This document shows, piece after piece, positions 716-45,050 of a stretch of DNA of 52,857 nt; the first letter of the stretch is position 1, and every line of letters starts with the position of its first letter. The DNA comes from Chiloscyllium plagiosum. Lineage: Eukaryota. The translations under genes and the position numbers were made by a program. The notes beneath the pieces were generated by a model. That model was not told where the DNA came from and searched no databases. It was given only the letters and a program-made list of their open reading frames with translations. The stretch is from assembly GCF_004010195.1 (NCBI RefSeq), contig NC_057718.1:5526701-5579557 (forward strand). The letters are read 5' to 3'.

Positions 716-1049
716 TCACAGCCTCCACACGTTGATGTCACTGTGTAGTTTTATCAGTGACTCCTTGCCGTGGGTCCAGAGGAAGAAAATGGCATCAATA
801 TACCTGGTGTACAATGTCGGGTGGAGATCCTGCATAGAGAAGAAATCTTGTTCGAACCTGTGCATAAACATGTTGGCATATTGGGGTGCAAATTTGGTCC
901 CCATGGCTGTTCCGTGTGTCTGGATGAAGAATTGGTTGTCAAAGGTGAAGACATTATGATTGAGGATAAAACGGTTGAGTTGTAGGATGGTGTTTGGAGA
1001 CTGGCAGTTGTTGGTGACGAGTACTGAGGCTGTTGCTGCGATGCCATCG
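716..1049 (-). mobile_element. Penelope-like element RT fragment, inverted relative to the adjacent copy
   Basis: ORF 716..1099 contains QTHGTAMGTKFAPQYAN...YTRYIDAIF (PLE RT motifs GxAMG and RYIDD-like). Confidence 0.9.
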
Positions 1050-2063
1050 CCACCACCAAAATGGACCTGTTGGTTCTGGCAGCAGACAGAGGAGTTCATC
1101 AGACGAATGAGACTCCGGGAATTCTTTCAAGGTGCCAGCAGTGATCCCACTGAGCCCACTGATGAACTGGAACAGTCATCACAGGGATCTGTAGAGGAGC
1201 GACCAAAGAAGGTGTCAACATGGACCCCACCGGAGGGCTGCTGCCCTGGGATTGACATGTATGCTCAAACTGTCAGGAAATATATAAATGCCAGATTCAT
1301 ACCCACAAGGTAGAGCAAAACATCACCCGCTCACAACGTAATGCCATCCAGGCTCTCAAAACCAATCACAACATTGTCATCAAAGCAGCAGATAAAGGAG
1401 GAGCCGTTGTCATTCAGAATAGAACAGATTACTGCAAGGAAGTGTACCGACAACTGAACAACCAGGAACACTACAGGCAACTACCAGCTGATCCGACCAA
1501 AGAACATATCCGAGAATTAAACACACTGATCAGAACTTTGGATCCAGTCCTACAGAGCTCCCTACGCGCCCTCATCCCACGTACTTCTCGTGTAGGTGAT
1601 TTCTACTGCCTTCCAAAGGTACACAAAGCCAACACACCGGGACCCTATGTGAGAATCTCTCCGGCTATGTAGAAGGCATCTTGAAACCTGTTGTACAGGG
1701 GATCTGCAGCTTCTGTCGCGACACTACAGATTTCTTGCAGAAACTCAGCACCCATGGACCAGTCAAACCGGGAACACTCCTCGTCACAATGGACGTTTCC
1801 GCACTCTACACCAGCATCTCCCACAATGATGGCATCGCGGCAACAGCCTCAGTACTCAACACCAACAACTGCCAATCTCCAAACACCATCCTACAACTCA
1901 TCTGCTTTATCCTCGATCATAACGTCTTCACCTTTGACAACCAATTCTTCATCCAGACACACGGAACAGCCATGGGGACCAAATTTGCACCCCAATATGC
2001 CAACATTTTTATGCACAGGTTCGAACAAGATTTCTTCTCTATGCAGGATCTCCAACCAACATT
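1050..2063 (+). mobile_element. Penelope-like element ORF fragment (N-terminal region and RT), disrupted
   Basis: FIRRMRLREFF, IVIKAADKGGAVV, FYCLPKVHK, LLVTMDVSALYTSI and GTAMGTKFAPQYA in successive frames, with stops and frameshifts; ends at an N gap. Confidence 0.92.
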
Positions 2064-6115: not shown

Positions 6116-6211
6116 TCCAAGTCCATTATGACTCCTTTTCAGCTTTTTATGTTTCTAGCTTTGTTTGAAAGAACTGATGTGTCAATGCCATTGTTCTGGC
6201 TTTGCATAAGG

Positions 6212-6370
6212 TCAGAAGTCACACAATGTCGGGTTATAGTCAAACTTCACCTGATGAAGGAGCAGCGCTCTGAAAGCTTGTGATTTCAAATAAATCTATT
6301 TGATTATAACCTGTTGTCGTGCGACTTCTGAGTTTGTCTACTCTGGTCCGACACTGGAACCGCCACATCA
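6212..6370 (+). mobile_element. family-A PLE terminal-repeat fold-back
   Basis: tcagaagtcacacaa...gttatagtcaaa is the inverted copy of tttgattataac...gtgcgacttctga. Confidence 0.75.
6247..6283 (+). ncRNA. minimal type-I hammerhead-ribozyme-like motif
   Basis: TCAC-CTGATGA-A-GGAGC agc GCTCT-GAAA-GCT-T-GTGA: core boxes, stem II, palindromic AGCT stem III, 4-bp stem I. Activity not shown. Confidence 0.65.
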
Positions 6371-6701: not shown

Positions 6702-7603
6702 CTATATGACAATACTGACTACATTTCAAAATTCAGTTATTGGTTTGGAACACAATGGCATGCAGAAAAGTGCTATATAAATGCAAGTCCTTCTTTCTCC
6801 CAGCCTGTAAAGCATTCTATGATAACTCTCAGTTAGTGAACATGTAATTCTAAGGGAAATGCAATATGTTTTGCAGTCACATCAATGTAACCCATGGGTC
6901 AACTGCGCTTTGCTTTAATCTGATCTCCATCTGCTATGTAAGAAGAAATTAATTCATTTTCTTCGTAATTTGATCAGCAATGTGCCATTTTGCTAGTGAT
7001 TCACTGAGAACAGATCTCATGAATTTTATTTATCCCATGTTTTAAAATGCTACTGTGGCTGCTTTCCCTCAGTCTCTCGGGGTGCATTGGGCCTTCCCCT
7101 TTTATTGCTCAGCTTGTGGAGAACAAGATTTCTAATTTCCCTAAGGCACTCCCTTTCATTTCTGCCTCACATTCATCTGTTCCAGAAGCTCTGCAATTTT
7201 TCAATCTGCAAATGCTCAGAAATTGCAGAGTTTGGCTTTTCCCAAGGGGGCGGAATGTGTTCTGAGGAAAAAGACAGAATGAAAAAGGAGTTTAGGTCTA
7301 GAATCCACAATGTTCTGATTCAGTGCTAAAGTGCTGCCAACTGACAAGGACAGTATTGTGCCTGATATCAGTCCTGACATCACAAAATTGAGCTGGTGTG
7401 AAAATAGTCAAAGTTTGCATCTAAAATTTTGTTTTGCTGATTTGCTTTGATTAAATTAGTCAATCTTGTAACTCAATGAACAGAGAACCTGATTTAAGTG
7501 TTAGTTGGGGGTTAATGTACTGGACAGAACTGTGCTGTTCTGTTTCAAAACAGCACGCGGGAACTTTAGTGTCAAACTGAGAAGTCAAACAGTGCTGCAG
7601 TTT

Positions 7604-7805
7604 TAAAAATCACACAACACCAGGTTATAGTCCAACAGGTTTAATTGGAAGCACACTAGCTTNNNNNNNNNNNNNNNNNNNNNNNNNNNNNNNNNNNNNN
7701 NNNNNCGAAAGCTAGTGTGCTTCCAATTAAACCTGTTGGACTATAACCTGGTGTTGTGTGATTTTTAACTTTGTACACCCCAGTCCAACACCGGCATCTC
7801 CGAAT
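7604..7805 (+). mobile_element. family-A PLE terminal-repeat fold-back, centre in N gap (7663-7705)
   Basis: Perfect inverted arms either side of the Ns; 14-bp TSD cagtgctgcagttt at 7590-7603 and 7806-7819. Confidence 0.9.
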
Positions 7806-7819
7806 CAGTGCTGCAGTTT

Positions 7820-8308: not shown

Positions 8309-8438
8309 ATTTCTGATAAAGGGCTTATGCCCGAAACATCAATTCTCCTGCTCCTTGGATGCTGCCTGACCTGCTGTGTTTTTCCAGCACCCTATCCTCG
8401 ACTCAGATCTCCAGCATCTGCATTCTTCACTTTCTCCT
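8309..8438 (+). mobile_element. solo family-B PLE terminal repeat
   Basis: Matches the terminus of the PLE at 20967-21097; 12-bp TSD aaagtcttcRta at 8297-8308 and 8439-8450. Confidence 0.88.
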
Positions 8439-13336: not shown

Positions 13337-13461
13337 TAGAAAGTGAGGACTGCAGATGCTGGAGATCAGAGTCGAGAGTGTAGTGTTGGAAAAACACAGC
13401 AGGTCAGGCAGTATCCAAGGAGCAGGAGTATTGACGTTTCGGGTAAAAGCCCTTCATCAGG
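13337..13461 (-). mobile_element. solo family-B PLE terminal repeat with hammerhead-like core
   Basis: Minus strand starts cCTGATGAaGGGcttttaCCCGAAACGTC and continues as the family-B repeat. Confidence 0.85.
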
Positions 13462-13754
13462 CCTCCATAACTGATAAAGAGTATGAGTGCTGTTTTTGTT
13501 TACCCCTACAGAGTTAATTAATTGTGTTCAATATTCTCACCATGATCAGATATCATTAAAATACATTTTACTACATTTATGTCCTTATTTGTTCCTGTTT
13601 GTGCTTTTCAAGTATCTCAATGAGTGTTAAGGTTCGGAATACTGCTATCTATCTCCAAGCTCAAATTAATCAACTTTGCATGCCTGAACCAAATATTTGA
13701 AGATCACTTTGAAGCTTTAAATTGCAATTATATTAAAGTGTTTTTATCATTTCC

Positions 13755-16344: not shown

Positions 16345-16585
16345 AAGTTCCCCTCCGAACCACTCACCATCCTGACTTGGAAATATACCAACATTCCTTT
16401 ACTGTTGCTGGGTCAAAATCCTGGAATACCCTCCCTTGTGGGCATTGTGGGTCTACTACAGCATGTGGACTGCAATGGTTCAAAAAGGCAGATCACCAAA
16501 ACCTTCTCAAGGGCAACTAGGGATGGATAATAAATGCTGGTCCAGCCAGCGACATCCACATCCCATGAGTGAATTAAAAAAAAAC
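16345..16585 (+). mobile_element. 3' end of a CR1/L2-group LINE sharing its tail with SINE family 2
   Basis: SWNTLP...GLQWFKK..H..LLKGN* followed by gggatggataataaatgctggtccagccagcgac...catcccatga tail. Confidence 0.75.
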
Positions 16586-16698
16586 GGTCCCTACTCATCA
16601 TGGTATCGTCGGCAAGTTTAGCAACCATACAATCAATCCTTTCATCCAAGTTTAAAAATTGATGCTCCATACTATATGCATGACATATCGTATTTACA

Positions 16699-16896
16699 GC
16701 TGAAAATGTGTTGCTGGAAAAGCGCAGCAGGTCAGGCAGCATCCAAGGAACAGGAGAATCGACGTTTCGGGCATAAGCCCTCCTTATGCCCGAAACGTCG
16801 ATTCTCCTGTTTCTTGGATGCTGCCTGACCTGCTGCGCTTTTCCAGCAACACATTTTCAGCTCTGATCTCCAGCACCTGCAGCCCTCACTTTCTCT
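16699..16896 (+). mobile_element. family-B PLE terminal-repeat fold-back
   Basis: ~78-bp near-perfect inverted arms; 15-bp TSD catatcRtatttaca at 16684-16698 and 16897-16911. Confidence 0.92.
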
Positions 16897-17157
16897 CATA
16901 TCATATTTACATCCTGCCAATCTGAAAGAATCCTTTTATGCTAACTCTCTCTGCTACCTCAGCTAACCAATCTCTATCCATACTAATTTGCAATGCCATG
17001 AACTCTTATCTTTTGGAGCAACCTTTGATGTGGCATTTTGTCAAATGCCTTCTGGAAATTGACTGGTTCAACATGCACTGGTTCCCATTTATCTACATTG
17101 CTTGTTGTTTCCTCAAAGAACTCTGCTAAATTTATCAAACATGATTTCCTTTCACAA

Positions 17158-18918
17158 TTCCCTACTGACGTCCAGGTCTGAGGTGTTCAAGTTGGGTGAC
17201 CCTGACCTATACAGGAAATCCAGGTATGACCCTCACACCAAGAGGCAATGCCAAACTAAGTTTGAGTCCCAGACAAACCATATGGACACCAGTTGTTAAG
17301 CCAGTGGATAAATAATAAATTGCAATGTACGGCTGCATTTCCTTCCCAGGAAATGGTAGTCCCAGATGCCAAATGCCACATTGACACAACTGTGCACTAT
17401 CGTACAATAAAACCTGAAATAAAGTTTGGTATAATCATTAGATGATTGAAAACGTTCATGAACATAATGAGCTAAAAGGTGAAGTCAAATAGAATCACAG
17501 GCACACAATACACCCGTCTCCGGTGAGCTCAGTGCATTCTACGCTCACTTTGAAACAATGTCACCTATCTCAACAACCTCGGTTGCATGTGTACCCACGG
17601 TGACCTCCCTAGACGTAAGATCAGCCTTCTTAAGGGTGAACCCACAAAAAGCTGCCGTTCCAGGTGAATTCCCCGGCTGTGCACTCAGATCATGTGAAGA
17701 CCAGCTGGTGGAACATTCACTGACATCTTCAACCTCTCCTCACTACAATCTGAAGTCCCCACCAGCTTCAAGAAGACCATTATCATGTTGGTGTCAAAGG
17801 AAAATCATGCAGCGTGCCTCAATGACTATCACCTGGTGGTTCTGAAATCCATAACTACAAAGAGCTTTGAGAAGTTGGTCATGGCTCATAATAACTGCCC
17901 TTGGTCCCTTGCAATTCACCCACTGGCGCAAAGGTCCACAGCAGATGTCATCTCCGCAGCCCTACACTCATCCCTGGAACATTTGGATAACAAGGAAACC
18001 TACATCAGGCTCCAACTTACTAACTACAGCTCTACTTTCAACATTATAATTCCAAACAACCCTAGGCCTCTGCTCCCAGCTCTGTAAGTGGATCTTTGAC
18101 TTCCTGACCAATAGACTGCAGTCAGTAAGTACAGTTGACAACACCTTCTCTACAATAATCCTCAACACCAGTACCCCGCAAGGCTGAGGACTCAGCCGCC
18201 TACTATAATCCTTATACACAAATGACTGTGTGGCCAAATTCTACTCCAAGTCAATTCACAAGTCTGCTGATGACACTATCATTGTAGGTTGGATCTCAAA
18301 CAACAATGAGATGGAGTCCAGGAAGGAAATAGAGTGCTTAACCACTAGATGTATAGAGAACAATCTCTCCATCAACATCAGCAAAGTGAAAGTCTTTGAC
18401 TTCAGGAAGTGGAGTGGGGGGCACACCCCTCTCTGTATCAATGGAGATGAGGTGGAGATGGTCGAGAGCTTCAAGTTTGTGGGAGTGACGATCACCAACA
18501 ATCTGTCCTGGGCCACCCACACTATGGTCAAGAAAACACAACAATGTCTCCAGTTTTTCAGGAGACTAAGGAAATTCAGCATGTCCATAAAGACTTACAA
18601 ATTGTTTTACATGCACTATTGCCAGCATCCTAACTAGATACATCACAGCGCATTTTGACAACTGCTCTTTCCAAGACTGAAAGAAACTGCAGAGAGTTGT
18701 GAACGTAGCCCTGTCCATCACGCAAACCAGCCTTCCATCCACTGACTTCATCTACACTTCCTGCTGTCTCAACCAACATAATCAAAGACCCCTCCCATCC
18801 CACCTCTTCCATCCTCTTCCATTGGGCAGAAGATACAAAAGTTTGAATGCATGTACAAACAGATTCAAGAACAGCTTCTTCCCCACTGTTATCAGACTTT
18901 TGAACGGGCCTCTTTATT
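17158..18918 (+). mobile_element. Rex1/Babar-type LINE, decayed RT and C-terminus
   Basis: ACLNDYHLVVL, RSTADVIS.ALH, KSADDT, FKFVGVTITNNLSW, PLPLGRRYKS...RFKNSFFP. Confidence 0.85.
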
Positions 18919-19863: not shown

Positions 19864-20369
19864 ATCTTTTTTAAATGTTGTAATTGTACCAATCTCCACC
19901 AGTTCCTCTGGCAGCTCATTCCATACATGCACCACCCTTTGTGTGAGAAAGTTGCCCCTTAGGCCCCTTTTAAATCTTTCCCCTCTCACCCGAAACCTAT
20001 GCCTTCCAGTTCTTAACTCACCCACCTCAGGGAAAATACCTTGTCTATTGACACAACACCAGGTTATAGTCCAACAGGTTTAATTGGAAGCACTAGCTTT
20101 TGGAGCGCTGCTCCTGTATCAGGTGGTTGTGGACAACCACATGATGAAGGAGCAGTGCTGTGGACCTGGTGTTGTGTGATTTTTAACTTTGTACACCCTA
20201 GTCCAACTGGCATCTCCAAGTCTTGTCTATTTACCCTATCCATGCCACTCATGATTTTACAAACCTCTATGAGGTCACCCCTCAGCCTCTGACAATGTAG
20301 GATATTTGGTCCGCATGGACAAGTTGGACTGAAGGATCAGTTTCTATGCTGTACATCTCTATGACTCTA
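19864..20369 (+). mobile_element. CR1 3' fragment with 5' inversion
   Basis: 19864-20297 is antisense CR1; 20298-20369 is the sense terminal tail ending ctctatgactcta. Confidence 0.78.
20051..20220 (+). mobile_element. family-A PLE terminal-repeat fold-back inside CR1
   Basis: Inverted arms around ggtggttgtggacaaccac; TSD cttgtctatt at 20040-20049 and 20222-20231. Confidence 0.88.
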
Positions 20370-20966: not shown

Positions 20967-22530
20967 GGAGGAGAAAGTGAGGACTGCAGATGCTGGAGAT
21001 CAGAGTTGAAATGTGTGATGCTGGAAAAGCACAGCAGGTCAGGCAGCGTCCGAGGAGCAGGAGAGTCGACATTTCGAGCATGACATCTTCATCAGGAATG
21101 AGAGGATGGCTCAAGTTTTGTTTGGGATTATGTCCGGCATGTACTGGTTGGACTGAATGGTCTGTTTCTATGCTGTATGACTCTAAGGTGGGGAGGTGAT
21201 GGTGATAGGTCAGATGGGAGGGTGAAGCGGATAGGTGAGACGAAAGATGGACATGGTAGGACTGTTCAAGAGGGCGGTGCCGAGTTGGAAGGTTGGGTCT
21301 AGGATAAGGTGGGGGGAAAGAAGATGAGGAAACTGGTGAAATTAACATTGATCCCGTATGGTTGGAGAATCCCAAGGAGAAGATGAGGCGCTCTTCCTCC
21401 AAGTGTTGGGAGGCTAGAGTTTGACAGTGGAGGAGGCCTGGGACTTGGATTGGGAGGGGGAGTGAAAGTGTTCAGCCACAGGGCAGTGGGGTTGTGTACT
21501 GCATGTGTTCCAGAGACATCCTCTGAAACATTGCACAAGTTGGCATCCTGCCTCCCACATCGAGAGGAGACCACATCGAGAGCAACGGACACAGTAGATG
21601 ACGTGTGGAAGTACAGGTAAATCTCTGTCGGATGTGGAAGGATCCTTTGGGGCTAAGGGTGAGGTGAGGGGAAGGTGTTGGCGCAGGTTTTGCACTTCTG
21701 TGGTGGCAGAGAAAGGTGCTAGGAGTGGAGGGTGGGTTGGTAGAGGGACATGGACCTAACAAGGGAGTCGCAGAGGGAATGGTCTCTGCGGAACACAGAT
21801 GGTGGTGGGGAGGGAAATATATCTGTGGTGGTAGGGTCTGATGTAGATGGCAGAAATGGCAGAGGATGATATGTTTTATCCAGAGTTTGGTGGGGTGGTA
21901 GGTGAGGACCAGTGGGTGTCTGTCCTTGTTGCGAGTGGAGGTACGGGGAGTGGAGGAGATGCACTAGAAGGCATTGTCGACCATGTGGGAGGGGAAGTTG
22001 TGGTCCTTGAAGAAGGAGACCATCTGGGATGTTCTATGATGGAACTGGTCCTCCTGGGAGCAAATGCAGCAGAGGCGGAGGAATTGGGAGTAAGGGATAG
22101 CATTTTTACAGGAGGTAGGGTTGGAGGAGGTGTAGTCCAGGTAGCTGTGCAACGCGGTGGGTTTGAAATAGATGTCCATGTTGTCGTCCACAGGAAATGG
22201 AAATGAGGAGTTCTAGGGAGGAGAGGGAAGTGTCTGGGATGGACCAGGTGAACTTGAGGTCAGGGTAGAATGCTTTAGTGAAGTTGATGAACTGTTCAAC
22301 CTCCTCATTGGAGCACGAGGCGGTGCCAATGCAATCATCGATTTTGCGGAGGAAAAGGTGGGGGATGGTGCCGGTGTAACTGCGGAAGATGGACTGTTCC
22401 ACATACCCGACAAAGAAGCAGGCATAGCTGGGGACCATGCTGGTGCCCATGGCTACCCCTTTGGTGTGGAGGAAGTGGGAGAATTCGACGGAGAAATTGT
22501 TGAGGATGAGGACCAGTTCAGCCAATCAAA
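20967..22530 (-). mobile_element. Penelope-like element (family B), 5'-truncated: RT, GIY-YIG endonuclease, terminal repeat
   Basis: LVLILNNF..TKGVAMGT..LRKIDDCIG; YFKPT.LHSYLDYTS..CKNAIPYSQFLRL; HVIYCVRCSRCGLL; EERLIFSLG; terminal repeat 20967-21097. A short CR1 tail is inserted at ~21105-21185. Confidence 0.92.
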
Positions 22531-23034
22531 TGAGTATTATGGTCTTATTTGGTGTCCATGCAGCTCAACAAAAATGACACGGAGCTGATTTCTCATAATA
22601 TTCAGTCCTTCTTTCTTTCTTTTCCACTGGAATATGTTTGTCTGAGTATTCTGAAATATCTCCTTTAAAACTGCCTCTGTCTCTACATATTTTCTTCAAT
22701 AAATTTATTTTTTATACATCAAGTGAATCAACAAATCAATAATTTAACAGTAGTTGGACACACAGATTTATAGAGGCAACACAAATGTCACAAAACCTGG
22801 TGAAAATATTCCATTATGATGAAAACTACAGCTCATGGATCAGATTTCATGACTCCTAACTTACACTCTGTTCTGCTTCTCAACAAGGACACAGCCACTG
22901 CCCATCCCTTGGCTTCCAGAAGTGGAACTGGAGTTTGAGTAACAAACAACACAGTGAATTAACCTTTATTTTTCAATTATTGATTTCAATATAACCTCCA
23001 TGACTAGCATTCTTTTGAAACTTCCAAATACATA

Positions 23035-23362: not shown

Positions 23363-24144
23363 CACTCTTACACTCCCATAATCTCCTACACATTATTAAT
23401 CCCAAGGCCCTTCACAGCTGATTTCGAATGTAAAAATCTTATCAATCTGAATAAGAGGCATCTTCAAAAGGCATGTCCCAGCTCTCACCCTCTAAGATGC
23501 TTTTAGTTCAGACTGATGAGATTTTTACATTCTCAGTCAGCTGTGAAGTCCTTTGGGCTAGCCTGAGATCATGAGAGGTGCTATACAAATACAAGTTTGT
23601 AACCCACACCCTCACAGAACATAAAAGCAGTGAAATGTCTCAAATCTGTTCCACTCTCCAGTGATTTGCTCAGGAGTTAAGACCTGGTCTTTATTCGACA
23701 ATAACTTTCTGATTCATCTTTATCCCAATATTGGTGACATCTTCCTTTATACTTTGGTTTAGTTCACAATTTAAAAATATGCCTCATCCATAATAAAGTT
23801 TGCAATGACATTAATTATTAGTCCTCCGCCACAGGAACGTCTTCTCCGCTGCCCAGCTGGGGCAATTTGATGTGTACTTGAATAATTCAGAGCTAAATTG
23901 CTTTTAATTGCTTTTGTATTCAACTTAAACATAATTATGAATGGATCAGTGAAGCAGTGAAAACAGCAAATGCAGGGAGGTTTTAGCCTATGTATCAAAT
24001 TATATTTTTAGACATTTAGTGAACGACAATGATAATAGGCAAAAATTAGTCTCTTATAATGTCAGGGAGATCACAGTCAAGCTTTATCTTTGAAACAAAA
24101 CTCTGGAAAGTCAGTAGGTCCAGAGCCATCTGCATAGGAACAAG

Positions 24145-25920: not shown

Positions 25921-26072
25921 TGGCCATATCACCATTCTTATAATTTGTTTCTAAATGTTCTGAAAAATGGAGGAGAAGAGCAAAAAGGAGTAGTTGCAAT
26001 CCTCCTAACTTGATCAGAATAAATCTCTCAATTTGCATGTAGCAATGTTCAGTTGGCATCCTGGGCACAAGT

Positions 26073-26254
26073 CAGGCAGCATCCGACGAGCAGGAAAATC
26101 GATGTTTCAGGCCGCAGACTTTCATCAGGAATTCCTGTTGAAGGTCTTCGGCCCGAAAGACGATTTTCCTGCTCCTCGGATGCTGCCTGACCTGTTGTGC
26201 TTTTGCAGCAACGCACTCTCAACTCTGATCTCCAGCATCTGCAGACTTCAGTGT
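26073..26254 (+). mobile_element. family-B PLE fold-back inserted in the Gypsy RNase H
   Basis: Axis ttcatcaggaa|ttcctgttgaa; TSD atcctggRcacaagt at 26058-26072 and 26255-26269. Confidence 0.88.
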
Positions 26255-27804
26255 ATCCTGGACACAAGTGCAATTGATTGTCTTTTACCACGGGGGTGGG
26301 GGCGTTGTTCTAAGCCCTCTCTGACCAGCATCATTCTGCAACGTGACTTCAGCATCGATTAAGAACCTTAGCATTGGCATTGTTGTTACTTCTTGTTTAA
26401 TATAAGCAAAAGTTGCTTCCTGTTAAATGTCCCTGTACCTCTGACCCTTCAATGACCTTGTGTAGTGATTCACATTCTGAAGAGAAATGGGGGAAACAAC
26501 TTTGTTGGAAAGTTCACAAATCCAGTAAATCAGTGTACCATCCTGACATGTATTGTTTGCTGCATCTGTGCTGCAGCCCTCACTATGTCAATTTCAGGGT
26601 GAAGTCTTTTCACTGCCAGTACAGAGTCTATTAACCTAGTTTTAATAGCAATTTTTTTTATTCAGCTTCAGGTTTATGTGACAAGCTCTCTTTTGTAGTC
26701 TGAATATGGTCAGTGATGGTATCTGTACAATCACTTCCAGCCCAGGAGGTTCACTGACTATTTCATGTCACTGGCATTGACACTCTCCTGGAGCAGGGAA
26801 AGTGTCAAGCACAGCCATCTGTACCCTCCAGATAGTGTCAAAGTATAGTCAGGAAACTGCTGTCTACATCCCAATGCCATTTACCAGCATCCATCCTTCA
26901 CATATTGGATGGTAAAGACTTTTATCTAGGCAAATTACAGCAACATTTCTTCAATGATCAGTATATAGTAGCAAGATCCCTTCAAAGATTTATTGGGGTC
27001 TTTTGATTTTGGCCTCGCACACTGTCAGCTTTCCAGGCTTTGGATTATCAACATGTCGCTATTCCAGTCTGTCAGATTTGTCACTTTATTGATTACTCCC
27101 ATTTTTTTCCGACTCCTCTAACTTGTCTTTAAGACAAGACTTGGGAGCAGTTGGAAATCTCCTTGGAAAATGCTGAGTTGGCCTCCTGCCACATCCATTT
27201 CAAGAGGTCATTCACCAGGAAGACATCCAAGGCTCATAAAAACATTTCTATAATTTTTTTAGGATCTTTTCTTAAACTATTATCTTGGTGCATAGCTAAA
27301 TGCTGCAAATTTCTTTGTGTTGAGTTATCAGTTCAAGCGTCAGACTTGCTTCAGCTGTGATGAGGCGTTTCGCACAGTTTCTCCATTCAGGAGCTGCAGA
27401 TCTTTTTTTCCATAGCATTGATGTCTCAGCTTCATTTGTGCCCTTGGGGTGAGTACCACTCCATTATATAACTTCGACATTATCATCAGTGGATTCATTT
27501 TCAGGTCACCATTTTGTGTAAGTTCACACAAGTCAGTAAAGGTTTTAATGTAAAGGTCTTTAAAGGTTTTGATGTTTCACCTAACACCAGTATCGATCTA
27601 ACACTTCGCAAACACTCAAATCTGTGCTGCTGCAGTAACTGTTCCAATAGATACAAGTTTTTTTAAACTTGAGACTTGATAGTGCAAGCCTTACTAGCAT
27701 GCATTACAGCATAGAACTATTCCTCAGAATCAATGTTCCATATTTCTCCAGCAACCATTCTTGTGGATTGGCCGAATCTATAGAAAGAGAAGCAATTAAC
27801 AATT

Positions 27805-31494: not shown

Positions 31495-32322
31495 CAAACT
31501 TAAAAATACGACAATGAAACAGACTACAGACAGGAGCTGGAAGACCTGGAAAAAATGGTGCACTGAGAACAACCTAGCTCTCAATGCTGACAAAACCAAG
31601 GAACTTATTTTTGATGTTTGGTGGGATGTTACTCATGCACCCCTACACATTAACAGCACAGAAGTTGAATGAGTGGAGAGTGTTAAGCTCCTGGGAGTGG
31701 TCATCCCCAACAACCTTTCTTGGAATCTGCATGTGGACGCACTGGTTACAAAGGCCCAACGATGTCTCTTCTTCCTCAGGCAGCTGAAGAAATTTGGCAT
31801 GGAAGTGAGTACCTTTGCCAAATTTTATCGGTGCGCCATCAAGAGCATTCTATCTGGATGTATCACTGCCTGGTATGGCCACTGTACCATTCAAGATCAG
31901 AGATGGTTACAGAGAGTGGTGAACTTGGCCCGGACAATCATAAAGGCCAACCTCCCATCTATAGAATCCATCTACCAGGTCCGCTGTCAAGGAAAGGCCG
32001 CCATCATTCTCAAAGATCCATCCCACCCTGGCAATGTTTTTCTACAACCTCTACCATCGGGGAGAAGGTACAGAAGCCTGAACACACGCACCAGCCGGTT
32101 TCGAAACAGTTTCTACCCTACTGTTGTTAGAACACTGAATGGCCTCATAAACTCTTAACATTCACCTGTACCTGTGTTTTTGTTTTTGTGCTGTTTACCT
32201 ATTATTTACTTATCTACGCTATTTAACTATGTGATTACCTGTATTGCTCACAAGACACTGTGCCTCTGTGCACGTGACAATAAATTCAATTCAATTCAAT
32301 TCGATTCAATTCAATTTAATTC
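31495..32322 (+). mobile_element. Rex1/Babar-type LINE 3' end with (AATTC)n tail
   Basis: ORF 31673..32158 KLLGVVI.NNLSW...SILSGCITAWYG...DPSHPG...LPSGRRYRS. Confidence 0.9.
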
Positions 32323-33677: not shown

Positions 33678-34168
33678 ATAGAATCCTTGCAGTGTCGAAG
33701 CAGGCCATTTGGCCTATCAAATTAACATCAACCCTCCAAATAGCATCCCACTCAGACCCACCCTATACCCACAACCTTACATTTCCCATGGCTAACCCAC
33801 CAGTATGCACATTGGTAGCATGGTCAATTCCCCTAACCTGCACATCTTTGAACTGTGGGAGGAAACCCACGCAGACACAGGTGAGAACATGCAAATTCCA
33901 CACAGATAGTCAGCTAATTGAGTCAAGAGTAGAGTGGTGCAGGAAAAGCCCATCAGATCAGGCAGCATCCGAGGAGCAGGAAAATTCATCAGGCTTTTTG
34001 TCCGAAACGTCAATTTTCCTGCTCCTTGGATGCGCCTGACCTGCTGTGCTTTTCCAGCACCACTCTAATCTATACTCGGATTTCCAGTCCTTACTTTTGC
34101 CTAAGGCTGGAATTGAGTCCAGGTCCCTAGCACCTTGAGGCAGCAGTGCTAACCACTGAGCCACCGTG
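33678..34168 (-). mobile_element. HE1-type SINE split by a PLE fold-back
   Basis: Head at 34102-34168, body and tail at 33678-33917. Confidence 0.82.
33918..34101 (+). mobile_element. family-B PLE fold-back
   Basis: agagtggtgcaggaaaagc...ggagcaggaaaatt inverted against aattttcctgctcc...gcaccactct. Confidence 0.82.
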
Positions 34169-38388: not shown

Positions 38389-38568
38389 TCAATAGATGTG
38401 AAGCTGGAAAAGCACAGCAGGTCAGATAGCATCGAAGGAGCAGGAAAGTCAACGCTTCAGACCTGACGTTGACTTTCCTGCTCCTCGGGTGCTGTCTGAC
38501 CTACTGTGCTTTTCCAGCTTCACATCTATTGACTCTGACTTCCAGCATCTGCAGTCCTTACTGTCTCC
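38389..38568 (+). mobile_element. family-B PLE fold-back
   Basis: caatagatgtgaagctggaaaagcacag / ctgtgcttttccagcttcacatctattg; TSD tcaatcagtt at 38375-38384 and 38572-38581. Confidence 0.87.
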
Positions 38569-40211: not shown

Positions 40212-40418
40212 CAAGCAAAAACTGAAATTGCTGGAGAAACACAGCAGATCGGGCTGGATCCGTGGAGAGAGATATAGTTATGTTTCGAGCCTTTCTGAAG
40301 AAGGGTCACTGGATTCGAAACATTAAGTTTGCTTTCTCTGCACAGAGGAGGTCATCCCGCTGAGTTTCTCCAGCAATTTTTGTTTTTGCTTTTGTTTTCC
40401 AGCATTCACATTCTTTAT
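40212..40418 (+). mobile_element. old PLE terminal-repeat fold-back
   Basis: aagcaaaaactgaaattgctggagaaacacagc / gctgagtttctccagcaatttttgtttttgctt; central CTGAAGAagggtcactggattcGAAA. Confidence 0.7.
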
Positions 40419-40462
40419 TTTACTTTGCGATCTTTATATGGCTGGTCCAATTCACTATCTGG

Positions 40463-42959: not shown

Positions 42960-43174
42960 GGAGGAGAAAGTGAGGACTGCAGATGCTGGAGATCAGAGCT
43001 GAAAATGTGTTGCTGGAAAAGCGCAGCAGGTCAGGCAGCATCCAAAGAGCAGGCGAATCGACGTTTCGGGCATAAGCCCTTCTTCAGGAAGGGCTCATGC
43101 CCAAAACGTCGATTCTCCTGCTCCTTGGATGCTGCCTGACCTGCTGCACTTTTCCAGCAACACATTTTCAGCTC
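42960..43174 (-). mobile_element. family-B PLE fold-back
   Basis: ~85-bp inverted arms; perfect 15-bp TSD ttaactcttaaactg at 42945-42959 and 43175-43189. Confidence 0.93.
43056..43090 (-). ncRNA. minimal hammerhead-ribozyme-like motif (family B)
   Basis: ttc-CTGAAGA-A-GGGC ttat GCCC-GAAA-CGTC-gatt; palindromic ACGT stem III, GUC triplet; stem I only ~2 bp. Confidence 0.5.
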
Positions 43175-43259
43175 TTAACTCTTAAACTGCCCTCTGGGCA
43201 ATAAATGCTGGTCTAGCCAGCAACACTGTCATCCCAAGAATGAATAAAAAAAACTATAT

Positions 43260-44214: not shown

Positions 44215-45050
44215 TTATATGGTGAATGGCAGAAATCTTAGGATCATTGGTATGCAGAGGGATCTGGGTGTGCAGGTCTACAAATCCCTGAAGGTGGCAG
44301 CACAGGTAGATAAGGTAGGAAAAAAGGCCAATAGCATATGTGCCTTCATTGGAAGTGGCATTGAGTATAAGATAGACAAGTTATGCTGCAGCTTTACAGA
44401 AGTTTAGTTAGGCCACACTTGGAATATTGTGTACAGTTCTGGTCACCACACTACCATAAGGATGTGAATGCTCTGGGGAGATTACAGCAAAGGTTTACCA
44501 AGATTCTGGATTAGTGGTGCTGGAAGAGCACAGCAGTTTAGGCAGCATCCGAGGAACTGCTGTGCTCTTCCAGCACCTCTAATCCAGAATCTGGTTTCCA
44601 GCATCTGCAGTCATTGTTTTTACCTTTACCAAGATGTTGCCTGGGATGGGGAATTTTAGCTATGAGGAAAGATTGGATAGACTGTTTTTACTGGAACGCA
44701 GGTGGCTGAGGGGTGACCTGATAGAAGTTTATAAGATTGTGAATGGCATGGATAGAGTATGAGGATTTTCCCCAGGGTGGAGGGGTCAATTACTAGGGGA
44801 CAGGTTGTGGGGGAGGGGGGTTTGAGAGGGAGTGTATAAGAGATTGGCGAAGCACGCTTTTCACACCATGATGATAAGTGCCTGGAACGTGCTGCTCGAG
44901 GAGGTGGTGGAAGCAGACATTTTAGCAACATTCAAGAAACACCTGGATGAATACACGAGTAGGAAGGGAATAGAGGGATACGGATCTGTCAGTGAAGACA
45001 GTTTTAGTATGGAGAAACAAAATGTATTGGCGCAGGCTTGGAGGGCTGAA
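44215..45050 (+). mobile_element. CR1 LINE 3' fragment
   Basis: QRDLGVQVYKSLKVAAQVDK, LVRPHLEYCVQFWSP, FKKHLD. Confidence 0.88.
44501..44624 (+). mobile_element. family-B-related PLE fold-back with deleted centre
   Basis: agattctggattagtggtgctggaagagcacagcagtt / aactgctgtgctcttccagcacctctaatccagaatct; TSD tttaccaagat at 44494-44504 and 44625-44635. Confidence 0.88.

What the first reader, a model, noticed from the sequence alone, without database searches (positions are those of the whole stretch)
16684..16911. A population of short fold-back 'mini-Penelope' insertions, most with their own TSD
Seen: about 11 inserts in 53 kb (5258, 6212, 7604, 16699, 20051, 26073, 33918, 38389, 40212, 42960, 44501) consist only of a PLE terminal repeat plus its inverted copy, with no ORF. 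Seven have clear 10-15 bp TSDs. Subfamily-diagnostic bases match between the two arms of each insert (cacattttcagc at 16699/42960, cttcacatctattg at 38389, ctaatccagaatct at 44501), so both arms were copied from one template in one event. Established: PLEs can form inverted terminal structures. Inference: this is either a very frequent abortive PLE integration product or a non-autonomous hairpin retroelement class. If transcribed, for example in an intron, it would be a dense source of dsRNA for ADAR or Dicer.
Basis: partly seen in the sequence, partly recalled or inferred. Interest (0 to 1): 0.8.

Follow-up and report, generated by a model that had tools for sequence, protein, structure and literature searches.

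The report
Miniature fold-back Penelope retroelement insertions
The short hairpin-shaped repeats are real, very common one-step insertion products of Penelope-like retrotransposons in a shark-like genome, made anew at each insertion and not copied as hairpins, so they are a miniature form of a known insertion pattern.

Summary
Window 16699-16896 is a 198-nt insert: two 80-nt inverted arms (99% complementary, 5-nt loop), a 34-nt extension on one arm only, and 15-bp target-site duplications. A related species has the uninterrupted site.

Each arm is the last 95-130 nt of a Penelope-like element (PLE), from a hammerhead-like motif to its 3' end. Longer copies carry a reverse transcriptase plus GIY-YIG reading frame about 175 nt upstream.

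In 30 near-identical copies elsewhere in the genome, the outer ends are constant, the duplications all differ, and the central junction varies: 20 distinct centres among 28 parsed. So the fold-back is rebuilt at every integration and does not spread as a unit.

In family A, 15 of 18 unbiased fold-backs have one arm ending at each of two sites about 33 nt apart. Often neither arm could be a copy of the other. This fits the two start sites, the 'tail' and the two-strand extension reported for an anole PLE in vitro (PMC11167929).

This is the known PLE architecture (PMC8557442) in miniature. Density is about one per 10 kb.

The parts
16684..16698 (.). Left copy of the 15-bp target-site duplication of the focal insert
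   Evidence: Direct repeat of 15 nt with 1 mismatch. A contig of a related species joins 16683 directly to 16897.
16699..16777 (-). Short arm: antisense copy of the PLE 3' unit. Its outer end lies at start site 1 and it has no tail. Its inner end lies inside the hammerhead-like motif.
   Evidence: Inverted repeat. Profile hit 16697-16785 on the minus strand, model positions 11-99.
16778..16782 (.). 5-nt unpaired centre, the junction between the two arms
   Evidence: This centre differs among 30 near-identical copies.
16783..16862 (+). Long arm, the part paired with the short arm: sense copy of the same unit
   Evidence: Profile hit 16783-16895 on the plus strand, model positions 19-131.
16863..16896 (+). 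34-nt 'tail', the extension present on the long arm only. It runs from start site 1 to start site 2 and is the 3' end of the insert.
   Evidence: Contigs of three DNA runs lose their common sequence after about 16863 and after about 16895 (table 7). The 30-40-bp PLE tail is described in PMC8557442 and PMC11167929.
16897..16911 (.). Right copy of the target-site duplication
26068..26258 (.). Family-A fold-back. Both arms reach model position 4. 15-bp duplication with 1 mismatch.
33919..34097 (.). Family-A fold-back. Arms 88% alike. 9-bp duplication.
38389..38568 (.). Family-A fold-back of another subfamily. 10-bp duplication.
40219..40419 (.). Old, diverged fold-back. Arms about 65% alike. No clear duplication.
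42963..43181 (.). Family-A fold-back of the same subfamily as the focal insert, in opposite orientation (tailed arm on the left), with a different centre. 15-bp perfect duplication.
44503..44622 (.). Family-A fold-back with short arms, both truncated well 3' of the hammerhead-like motif. 11-bp duplication.
6176..6370 (.). Family-B fold-back. The left arm also seems to carry a diverged tail.
7603..7807 (.). Family-B fold-back with a run of N (7663-7705) at its centre. The tailed arm is on the right.
20049..20222 (.). Family-B fold-back. 10-bp duplication.
20970..21099 (-). Complete family-A unit (hammerhead-like motif to tail) at the 3' end of a longer PLE copy
   Evidence: Profile hit, model positions 4-132
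21272..22543 (-). Remnant of the PLE reading frame (C-terminal part of reverse transcriptase plus GIY-YIG nuclease), broken by frame changes. It ends about 173 nt upstream of the unit at 21099.
   Evidence: tblastn to P0002 residues 33-469. P0002 carries RVT_1 and GIY-YIG, the latter at 23.2 bits against a cut-off of 22.6. Homologues are shark proteins with RVT_1.
8309..8437 (+). Solo family-A unit that starts just 5' of the hammerhead-like motif with unique sequence upstream. It shows the discrete 5' end.
13338..13464 (-). Solo family-A unit with a complete hammerhead-like core

Best explanation
Each fold-back is the product of one integration event of a Penelope-like element.

Inferred model. 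The element's nuclease cuts both strands of the target about 15 bp apart, which gives the duplication. Both freed DNA ends prime reverse transcription on the element's RNA. One starts at an inner start site (site 1). The other starts at a site about 33 nt further 3' (site 2), so only one arm carries the 'tail'.

Both cDNAs run only 60-130 nt, to the hammerhead-like motif or the discrete 5' end just before it. There their ends are joined head-to-head, by a template jump or by end joining, at a point that differs from event to event.

Shown: one event per fold-back, the PLE origin of the arms, constant outer ends, variable centres, and arms that cannot be copies of one another.

Inferred: priming from both nicks, and the way the ends are joined.

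More speculative: both cDNAs are copied from one RNA held by a protein dimer, with the site-2 enzyme trailing the site-1 enzyme.
For: (1) Single event. Direct-repeat score was 9 or more in 41 of 47 family-A fold-backs, and in 13 of the 18 unbiased ones, against 3 of 231 controls. Duplication lengths were 10-18 with mode 15 in the 38 scoring 10 or more. Eight of 41 have uninterrupted paralogous host-repeat copies whose two flank matches overlap by the duplication length within 4 nt. A 437-nt contig of a related species (run X11) lies on 16556-16683 and 16897-17206 without a break. Another individual of the window's own species (X4) covers the element-flank border 16877-17206.

(2) PLE origin. 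Longer copies continue upstream into a frame matching proteins with RVT_1 and GIY-YIG. The frame ends about 175 nt before the unit in the window, L013 and L045. Two core boxes of a hammerhead are nearly invariant in 44 copies whose mean column identity is 68%. Helix II is paired in 86.9% of cells, with double changes at 3 of 4 pairs.

(3) Made anew each time. In 30 copies of one young subfamily the outer ends are constant within about 3 nt. The duplications all differ, and 28 parsed centres fall into 20 distinct strings.

(4) Two start sites. In family A, 43 of 47 fold-backs (15 of 18 unbiased) have one arm ending at model position 86-110 and the other at 116 or more. One of 47 has two tailed arms, none has two untailed arms, and 3 have an arm cut short at its outer end. 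Solo copies end at either site, 19 against 30. If the two ends were drawn independently at the solo frequencies, 15 mixed out of 15 has probability about 1.4e-5 (my arithmetic).

(5) Independent cDNAs. In 27 of 43 mixed pairs (8 of 15 unbiased) the untailed arm reaches at least 5 positions further inward than the tailed arm. Each arm then holds sequence that the other lacks.

(6) Published biochemistry (main text of PMC11167929 read). The anole Poseidon protein cleaves and extends both strands. It starts reverse transcription at two adjacent internal sites whose interval equals the genomic tail, downstream of a hammerhead, and is predicted to be a dimer. Passages of PMC8557442 describe strong 5' truncation, an adjacent inverted 5'-truncated copy, and a 30-40-bp tail often at one end only.
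Against: Family B does not keep the one-tail rule strictly. Of 14 fold-backs, 9 are mixed, 4 have two tailed arms and 1 has none. At least one of the four is an artefact of a profile hit overrunning the element end (7567). At least one looks real (6176, by eye). Two tailed arms cannot come from a single RNA.

The finding that the untailed arm reaches further inward is partly a detection bias. A strongly truncated tailed arm is still detectable through its tail, whereas an equally truncated untailed arm is not. The 29 selected copies also resemble the query by construction.

Rfam hammerhead models do not match complete copies even at E up to 10, so the ribozyme assignment rests on the motif and pair counts.

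I could not fetch a full-length element. Whether the unit also opens the reading frame, as in the anole element, is not shown.

In 4 of 43 mixed pairs the tailed arm reaches further inward, and in 12 the arms are within 4 positions of each other. Those pairs are also compatible with self-priming.

No experiment on this element exists.
Confidence: 0.75

Rival explanations
1. Snap-back self-priming. One cDNA is made by target-primed reverse transcription. Its 3' end folds back on itself and the enzyme copies the cDNA, so the second arm is a copy of the first.
For: Arms are nearly identical at young loci (99% in the focal insert). The centre often lies in the self-complementary helix II of the hammerhead-like motif. 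In 4 of 43 mixed pairs the tailed arm also reaches further inward, and in 12 the arms are within 4 positions, which this model allows.
Against: In 27 of 43 mixed family-A pairs (8 of 15 unbiased) the untailed arm holds inner positions that the tailed arm lacks, while the tailed arm holds the tail that the other lacks. Neither can then have been templated by the other. Extreme cases are L040 (tailed arm model positions 91-130, other arm 4-100) and L050_8506 (40-132 against 5-98). The centres seen do not have the form expected from priming on helix II (my reading).
Confidence: 0.1
2. A non-autonomous hairpin retroelement. The fold-back itself is transcribed and retro-copied as a unit by the PLE machinery.
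For: At least 40 scored genomic places match the whole fold-back at 91-98% identity, from 2737 first-look candidates. Some centres recur: 4, 3, 3 and 2 times among 28.
Against: There are 20 distinct centres among 28 near-identical copies. Loci sharing a centre show no shared private substitutions on inspection. The untailed end always abuts the duplication, with no carried-over flank. Solo units and fold-backs of the same subfamilies coexist.
Confidence: 0.05
3. Two successive insertions. A second copy homes into the 5' end of an earlier copy in the opposite orientation.
For: PLEs are reported to insert into their own copies (PMC11167929, main text). One tandem pair and two tail-to-tail pairs exist in the sample.
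Against: One duplication flanks the whole structure in 41 of 47. Paralogous and orthologous empty sites lack both arms at once. The excess of head-to-head over other orientations at 80 nt or less (18 against 2 and 1 in the unbiased family-A set) would need an orientation-specific homing site at variable positions.
Confidence: 0.03
4. Palindrome formation at the DNA level after insertion: repair or replication fold-back of a solo copy.
For: Palindromes can arise by hairpin-capped break repair (general knowledge; the listing shows such papers, which I did not read).
Against: The outer ends coincide with the two element-specific 3' ends also used by solo copies. Duplications flank the whole structure. 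The process would have to recur hundreds of thousands of times on this repeat only.
Confidence: 0.02

Closest known systems
Canonical insertion architecture of endonuclease-bearing Penelope-like elements (Penelope/Poseidon, Neptune, Naiad), as described in PMC8557442 (passages read) and PMC11167929 (main text read)
   Same: Strong 5' truncation. An inverted 5'-truncated copy abuts the 5' end. A 30-40-bp tail sits at one end only. A hammerhead motif lies upstream of the reverse-transcription start sites. The element has a reverse transcriptase plus GIY-YIG frame, and target duplications of variable length. All of these are seen here.
   Different: The structure is reduced to its minimum. Both copies are truncated at or near the hammerhead-like motif, so the insert is only 120-240 nt and has no coding sequence. 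This form makes up 18 of 73 family-A loci and 14 of 25 family-B loci in my sample. I found no paper in the held library describing such a population: no paper listed held 'Penelope-like' together with fold-back, foldback, snap-back or twin priming. One review held it with head-to-head and foldback, but I did not read that review.
Twin priming of LINE-1, giving 5' inversions (recalled from Ostertag and Kazazian 2001; not read here)
   Same: The second nicked target strand also primes reverse transcription. This gives an inverted segment inside one duplication-flanked insertion.
   Different: In LINE-1 the two cDNAs copy different, adjoining parts of one RNA, so the arms are not repeats of each other. 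Here both arms cover the same stretch and start at two fixed sites.
Animal non-LTR retrozymes, hammerhead-bearing tandem repeats proposed to be non-autonomous PLE derivatives (bioRxiv 10.64898/2026.07.22.740005, abstract and passages read)
   Same: Short non-coding PLE-derived units with a hammerhead motif, at high copy number in lower vertebrates, including one cartilaginous fish in that survey.
   Different: Retrozymes are direct tandem repeats thought to pass through circular RNA. Here direct tandem neighbours number 1 of 50 close pairs in family A and 1 of 15 in family B. The units are inverted.
MITEs and foldback DNA transposons
   Same: Short, non-coding, hairpin-forming inserts with target duplications, dispersed at high copy number.
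   Different: MITE ends are symmetric and their internal sequence is copied faithfully. Here the ends are asymmetric (a tail on one arm), the centre varies between near-identical copies, duplication length varies from 9 to 18, and the arms are the 3' end of a retroelement.

Membership tests
Penelope-like elements (endonuclease-bearing) | Reading frame with reverse transcriptase joined to a GIY-YIG nuclease | tested here: met
   This holds for longer copies of the same repeat, not for the fold-backs themselves. Window 22543-21272 (minus strand) matches P0002 residues 33-469. P0002 has RVT_1 and GIY-YIG at 23.2 bits against a cut-off of 22.6. The frame in L013 gives GIY-YIG at 20.4 bits, below the cut-off. 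Placement of the reverse transcriptase in a PLE tree was not tested.
Penelope-like elements (endonuclease-bearing) | Hammerhead ribozyme motif in the terminal repeat region | tested here: inconclusive
   No Rfam hammerhead family matches, at gathering score or at E up to 10. But both core boxes are nearly invariant in 44 copies. Helix II is paired in 86.9% of cells with double changes at 3 of 4 pairs, and the covariation score exceeds 500 of 500 shuffles and all slid controls. PLE hammerheads are described as minimal forms lacking helix III (PMC6155905, passage). Cleavage was not tested.
Penelope-like elements (endonuclease-bearing) | [quoted passage not shown] | tested here: met
   34 nt in the focal insert (16863-16896). 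One tailed and one untailed arm in 43 of 47 family-A fold-backs and 9 of 14 family-B fold-backs.
Penelope-like elements (endonuclease-bearing) | 5' truncation with an adjacent inverted 5'-truncated copy | tested here: met
   Head-to-head pairs dominate close neighbours. A large-scale example is L009, where a copy truncated at residue 104 has an inverted unit fragment directly upstream.
Non-LTR retrozymes | Direct tandem repeats of a hammerhead-bearing unit | tested here: not met
   One tandem pair within 80 nt among 50 close family-A pairs, and 1 among 15 family-B pairs.
MITE / foldback DNA transposon | Symmetric terminal inverted repeats, with the internal sequence copied unchanged between copies | tested here: not met
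   The ends are asymmetric. There are 20 distinct centres in 28 near-identical copies.
LINE-1-type twin-priming inversion | The inverted and direct segments are different, adjoining parts of the element | tested here: not met
   Both arms cover the same model positions.

The most novel reading that the evidence does not exclude
The fold-backs are genomic footprints of a concerted two-strand integration. A dimeric PLE protein holds one RNA, places the two ends of the cut target on the RNA's two start sites, and both enzymes copy the same RNA in file. The site-2 enzyme trails and stops behind the site-1 enzyme, then jumps onto the displaced first cDNA.

This would explain the one-tail rule, the usually shorter tailed arm, and the event-specific centres. 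It would make a shark-like genome with an estimated few hundred thousand such inserts a natural record of PLE integration mechanics. Those inserts would also be a very large pool of near-perfect hairpins if transcribed.
Probability: 0.3. Interest if true: 0.6.

Novelty: new member of a known kind. Interest (0 to 1): 0.38.

Why it matters
How Penelope-like elements make their inverted repeats and one-sided tails is still an open mechanistic question. PMC8557442 calls for an in-vitro system, and PMC11167929 gives the first one.

These miniature inserts are short enough that both arms, both ends and the junction can be read in full at many loci. This turns the question into a countable one. One can ask which start site pairs with which, how far each cDNA ran, and how the ends were joined.

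There is also a practical side. At about one 120-240-nt near-palindrome per 10 kb, in two families alone, these inserts matter for assembly, since hairpins break contigs. A run of N sits exactly at the centre of one fold-back in this window. They also matter for repeat annotation and for any search for hairpin RNA genes: microRNA models match the focal insert at E down to 5e-10 without reaching gathering score.

Tried and rejected
Rfam. There was no match at gathering score in the whole window. At E up to 10, only microRNA-precursor models and a few unrelated weak hits matched the hairpins, and no hammerhead family matched. The microRNA hits lie far below gathering score and I take them as generic hairpin matches.

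Pfam GIY-YIG over the whole genome gave one weak match out of 150 scored candidates. This was useless for finding the autonomous element. The route through a window frame and its shark homologues worked instead.

Conserved RNA structure in the 3' part of the unit. RNAalifold on 20 copies gave -1.7 kcal/mol and 7 pairs, almost without covariation. I make no claim from this.

More random genome. The loci could not be cut out for the same reason. As a result the census rests on 346 kb, of which 200 kb is random, and no full-length element was examined.

The empty-site test was then done from coordinates only.

Expression. No RNA holder was listed for the focal stretch. A run guessed to be RNA (X15) has contigs carrying arms of the family, but no depth on the unique flank 16912-17013. 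The base differences seen inside the arms occur in DNA runs too, so they reflect copy variation and not editing (table 3).

Earlier notes of this scan: three look-ups returned nothing.

The partner-arm test has no power for the young subfamily. Duplication detection for family B was poor because the profile ends are imprecise: 4 of 14 scored 10 or more. One paper search failed on a badly formed term and was not repeated.
Full report
THE OBJECT

At 16698-16862 the window holds two 80-nt arms that are 99% complementary, with 5 nt between them. The right arm continues for another 34 nt to 16896. A 15-nt direct repeat with one mismatch lies at 16684-16698 and 16897-16911. The insert is therefore 16699-16896 (198 nt), and the finding's coordinates run from duplication to duplication. 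As RNA it would fold into an almost perfect hairpin: -163.9 kcal/mol against -56.4 +/- 4.4 for shuffles, z = -24.3.

THE POPULATION IN THE WINDOW

A profile built from natural copies of the arm (family A, 134 positions) finds seven head-to-head pairs in the window: 16697, 26068, 33919, 38389, 40219, 42963 and 44503. A second profile (family B, 130 positions) finds three more: 6176, 7567/7603 and 20049. The eleventh, 5258, is a diverged pair visible by eye only. An inverted repeat at 23401-23557 belongs to another repeat.

WHAT THE ARM IS

Solo copies in the window (8309-8437, 13338-13464, 20970-21099) show the full unit. It starts a few bases before a hammerhead-like core, runs about 63 nt past the predicted cleavage point to a first end (site 1, model position about 98), and then about 33 nt further to a second end (site 2, position about 130-132).

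In 44 aligned copies with a mean column identity of 68%, the two core boxes of the hammerhead are nearly invariant. Helix II is paired in 86.9% of cells, with changes on both sides at 3 of 4 pairs. The whole structure is paired in 77.3% of cells, against 9-54% when the partners are slid. The covariation score exceeds all 500 shuffles.

Rfam's hammerhead models do not match, even at E up to 10. A review states that PLE hammerheads are minimal forms without helix III (PMC6155905, passage). I treat the ribozyme as likely but unproven.

Longer copies share homology to at least 1.1 kb upstream. Window 22543-21272 (minus strand) matches residues 33-469 of P0002, a shark protein that carries RVT_1 and GIY-YIG above the Pfam cut-off. 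The match ends about 173 nt before the unit. L013, L045 and L011 show the same arrangement.

Reverse transcriptase joined to GIY-YIG is the mark of endonuclease-bearing PLEs (PMC8557442, introduction passage). The genome gave 73 scored matches to P0001, out of 125,818 first-look candidates. Several lie in open frames of 700-1380 residues without stops, so an autonomous partner probably exists.

ONE EVENT PER FOLD-BACK

The sample was 346 kb: the window, 20 random 10-kb pieces, and the 3-kb surroundings of 29 copies picked by similarity. In it, family A gives 149 profile hits: 47 head-to-head pairs (29 of them the picked copies, 18 unbiased) and 55 solo hits.

- A flanking direct repeat scoring 9 or more is present in 41 of 47 (13 of 18 unbiased), against 3 of 231 offset controls.
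- Duplication lengths are 10-18 with mode 15, and the duplications are 64.5% A+T against 57.4% for the sample.
- Eight of 41 fold-backs sit in other repeats for which the sample holds uninterrupted copies. There the matches to the left and right flank overlap by the duplication length within 4 nt.
- For the focal insert, a 437-nt contig of a related species (run X11) lies on 16556-16683 and then directly on 16897-17206. A contig of another individual of the window's own species (X4) covers the border 16877-17206.

So the insert is absent from the relative and present in the species.

Close neighbours (80 nt or less) are head-to-head 47 times in family A, tail-to-tail 2 times and tandem once. 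The unbiased counts are 18, 2 and 1. For family B the counts are 14, 0 and 1.

NOT COPIED AS A UNIT

The genome holds many whole-length matches to the focal insert: at least 40 scored places at 91-98% identity, from 2737 first-look candidates. Aligning 30 of them shows three things:
- the untailed outer end is constant within about 3 nt;
- the tailed end is constant apart from a few terminal bases;
- every locus has its own duplication.

The centre, however, is variable. 28 centres could be parsed and they fall into 20 distinct strings. The commonest occur 4, 3, 3 and 2 times. Loci sharing a centre show no shared private substitutions on inspection. The fold-back is rebuilt at each integration from a single-arm template.

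TWO ENDS, ONE OF EACH

In family A, 43 of 47 pairs (15 of 18 unbiased) have one arm ending at model position 86-110 and the other at 116 or more. One pair has two tailed arms, none has two untailed arms, and three have an arm cut short. Solo copies use either end, 19 against 30. With independent choice at those frequencies, 15 mixed pairs of 15 has probability about 1.4e-5 (my arithmetic).

Family B is less strict: 9 mixed, 4 two-tailed and 1 tail-less of 14. At least one two-tailed call there is an artefact (7567) and one looks real (6176).

ARMS ARE NOT COPIES OF EACH OTHER

In 27 of the 43 mixed family-A pairs (8 of 15 unbiased) the untailed arm reaches at least 5 positions further inward than the tailed arm. 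In 4 it is the reverse, and in 12 they are within 4 positions. Where the untailed arm is longer inward, each arm holds sequence that the other lacks. Extreme cases are L040 and L050_8506. Neither arm can then have been templated by the other, which excludes simple snap-back synthesis for these cases. Both arms must have been copied from RNA.

The direction of the asymmetry is partly a detection bias. A short tailed arm is still found through its tail, whereas an equally short untailed arm is not. The existence of such pairs is not affected by this bias.

FIT TO WHAT IS KNOWN

PMC8557442 (passages read) describes PLE insertions as strongly 5'-truncated. They often have an inverted 5'-truncated copy at the 5' end and a 30-40-bp tail, often at one end only.

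PMC11167929 (main text read) reports the following for a purified anole Poseidon protein. It cleaves and extends both target strands. Reverse transcription starts at two adjacent internal sites of the RNA, and the interval between them equals the genomic tail. These sites lie about 85-90 nt past the hammerhead cut. The protein is predicted to be a dimer.

The shark-like fold-backs show the same geometry: about 63 and about 96 nt past the predicted cut, with a 33-34-nt tail. My reading is that they are that architecture at minimal size, with both cDNAs stopping at or near the hammerhead-like motif.

Many solo copies and arms end at model position 4-6 with unique sequence upstream (table 7). This points to a discrete 5' end of the template, or a strong stop at the folded motif. 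I cannot say which.

I found no description of such a miniature population. No paper listed held 'Penelope-like' together with fold-back, foldback, snap-back or twin priming. One review held it with head-to-head and foldback, but I did not read it. Searches listed nothing on point either. The library lacks most subscription journals, including the older PLE papers of 2005-2006, which I recall but did not read.

MECHANISM, WITH GRADES

Shown:
- single-event, duplication-flanked insertion;
- PLE origin of the arms;
- two alternative 3' ends;
- event-specific centre;
- arms that are independent copies of RNA in many cases.

Inferred, about 0.6: the two 3' hydroxyls of a staggered double cut each prime reverse transcription, one at each start site, and the two cDNA ends are joined by a template jump or by end joining.

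Speculative, about 0.3: one RNA serves both enzymes in file. This would explain the one-tail rule and the shorter tailed arm. The two-tailed pairs of family B argue that this cannot be the only route.

ABUNDANCE

The 200 kb of random sequence holds 10 family-A and 10 family-B fold-backs. That is one per 10 kb. Extrapolated to 3.56 Gb it gives about 3.6e5, with Poisson limits for a count of 20 giving roughly 2e5 to 5.5e5. This is my arithmetic from a small sample. Fold-backs make up 18 of 73 family-A loci and 14 of 25 family-B loci. The window, with 10-11 in 53 kb, is about twice as dense as the random sample.

WHAT REMAINS OPEN

- Expression, Dicer or ADAR processing were not tested. No RNA holder was listed, and the differences in the arms also occur in DNA runs.
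- Ribozyme activity is untested.
- The position of the unit in a full-length element is not shown.
- The identity of the autonomous partner of each family is not established.
- Whether one RNA or two are used is unresolved.

VERDICT

The second, a propagating hairpin element, is not.

The object is a new member of a known kind: the known PLE inverted-plus-tail architecture in miniature and at very high copy number. It is of moderate interest, mainly as a readable natural record of PLE integration.

Noticed in passing
window 7663-7705: A run of 43 N sits exactly at the centre of the family-B fold-back 7603-7807. It is either an assembly gap caused by the hairpin or a withheld stretch. The 346-kb sample holds 7602 N in all.
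   Followed up: no
window 755-2037: Reverse-transcriptase pieces only 31-40% identical to the shark PLE proteins lie head-to-head. One piece runs leftwards from about 1078 to 755, and another runs rightwards from about 1080 to 2037, starting at residue 111 of P0001. RVT_1 hits lie at 2-550, 716-1126 and 1600-2178. This looks like a large-scale inverted, 5'-truncated pair of another, older PLE family.
   Followed up: partly
window 23401-23557: An inverted repeat with 64-nt arms, 81% complementary and 29 nt apart, shows no likeness to the PLE units. It is possibly a small DNA-transposon-like element.
   Followed up: no
L009:2296-3204: A PLE copy truncated at about residue 104 of the frame starts at 2365. 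It has an inverted fragment of the 3' unit (model positions 45-100, ending at site 1) directly upstream at 2296-2351. This is the large version of the fold-back.
   Followed up: partly
38 family-A fold-backs of the sample: The first three bases of the duplication, on the side next to the tailed 3' end, show a weak preference: C in 20 of 38, then A in 17, then T in 18. The duplications are also richer in A+T than the sample. This is possibly the nuclease's target preference, or microhomology with the element's last bases.
   Followed up: partly
window 18209-18637 and 31673-32158: Open frames match Pfam ALKBH8_N at 21.7 and 27.5 bits, against a cut-off of 21. They are probably parts of another retroelement's frame and not a host gene.
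   Followed up: no
window 16717-16844: MicroRNA-precursor models of Rfam (MIR2118, mir-1253, mir-680) match the focal hairpin at E from 5e-10 to 7e-5, but far below gathering score. Such inserts could inflate hairpin-based microRNA predictions in this genome.
   Followed up: no
L049 (G000:C19:3000001-3010000): One random 10-kb piece holds 9 family-A hits (7 solo hits and one fold-back), one family-B fold-back and three GIY-YIG-region remnants. It is a local pile-up of nested PLE copies.
   Followed up: no
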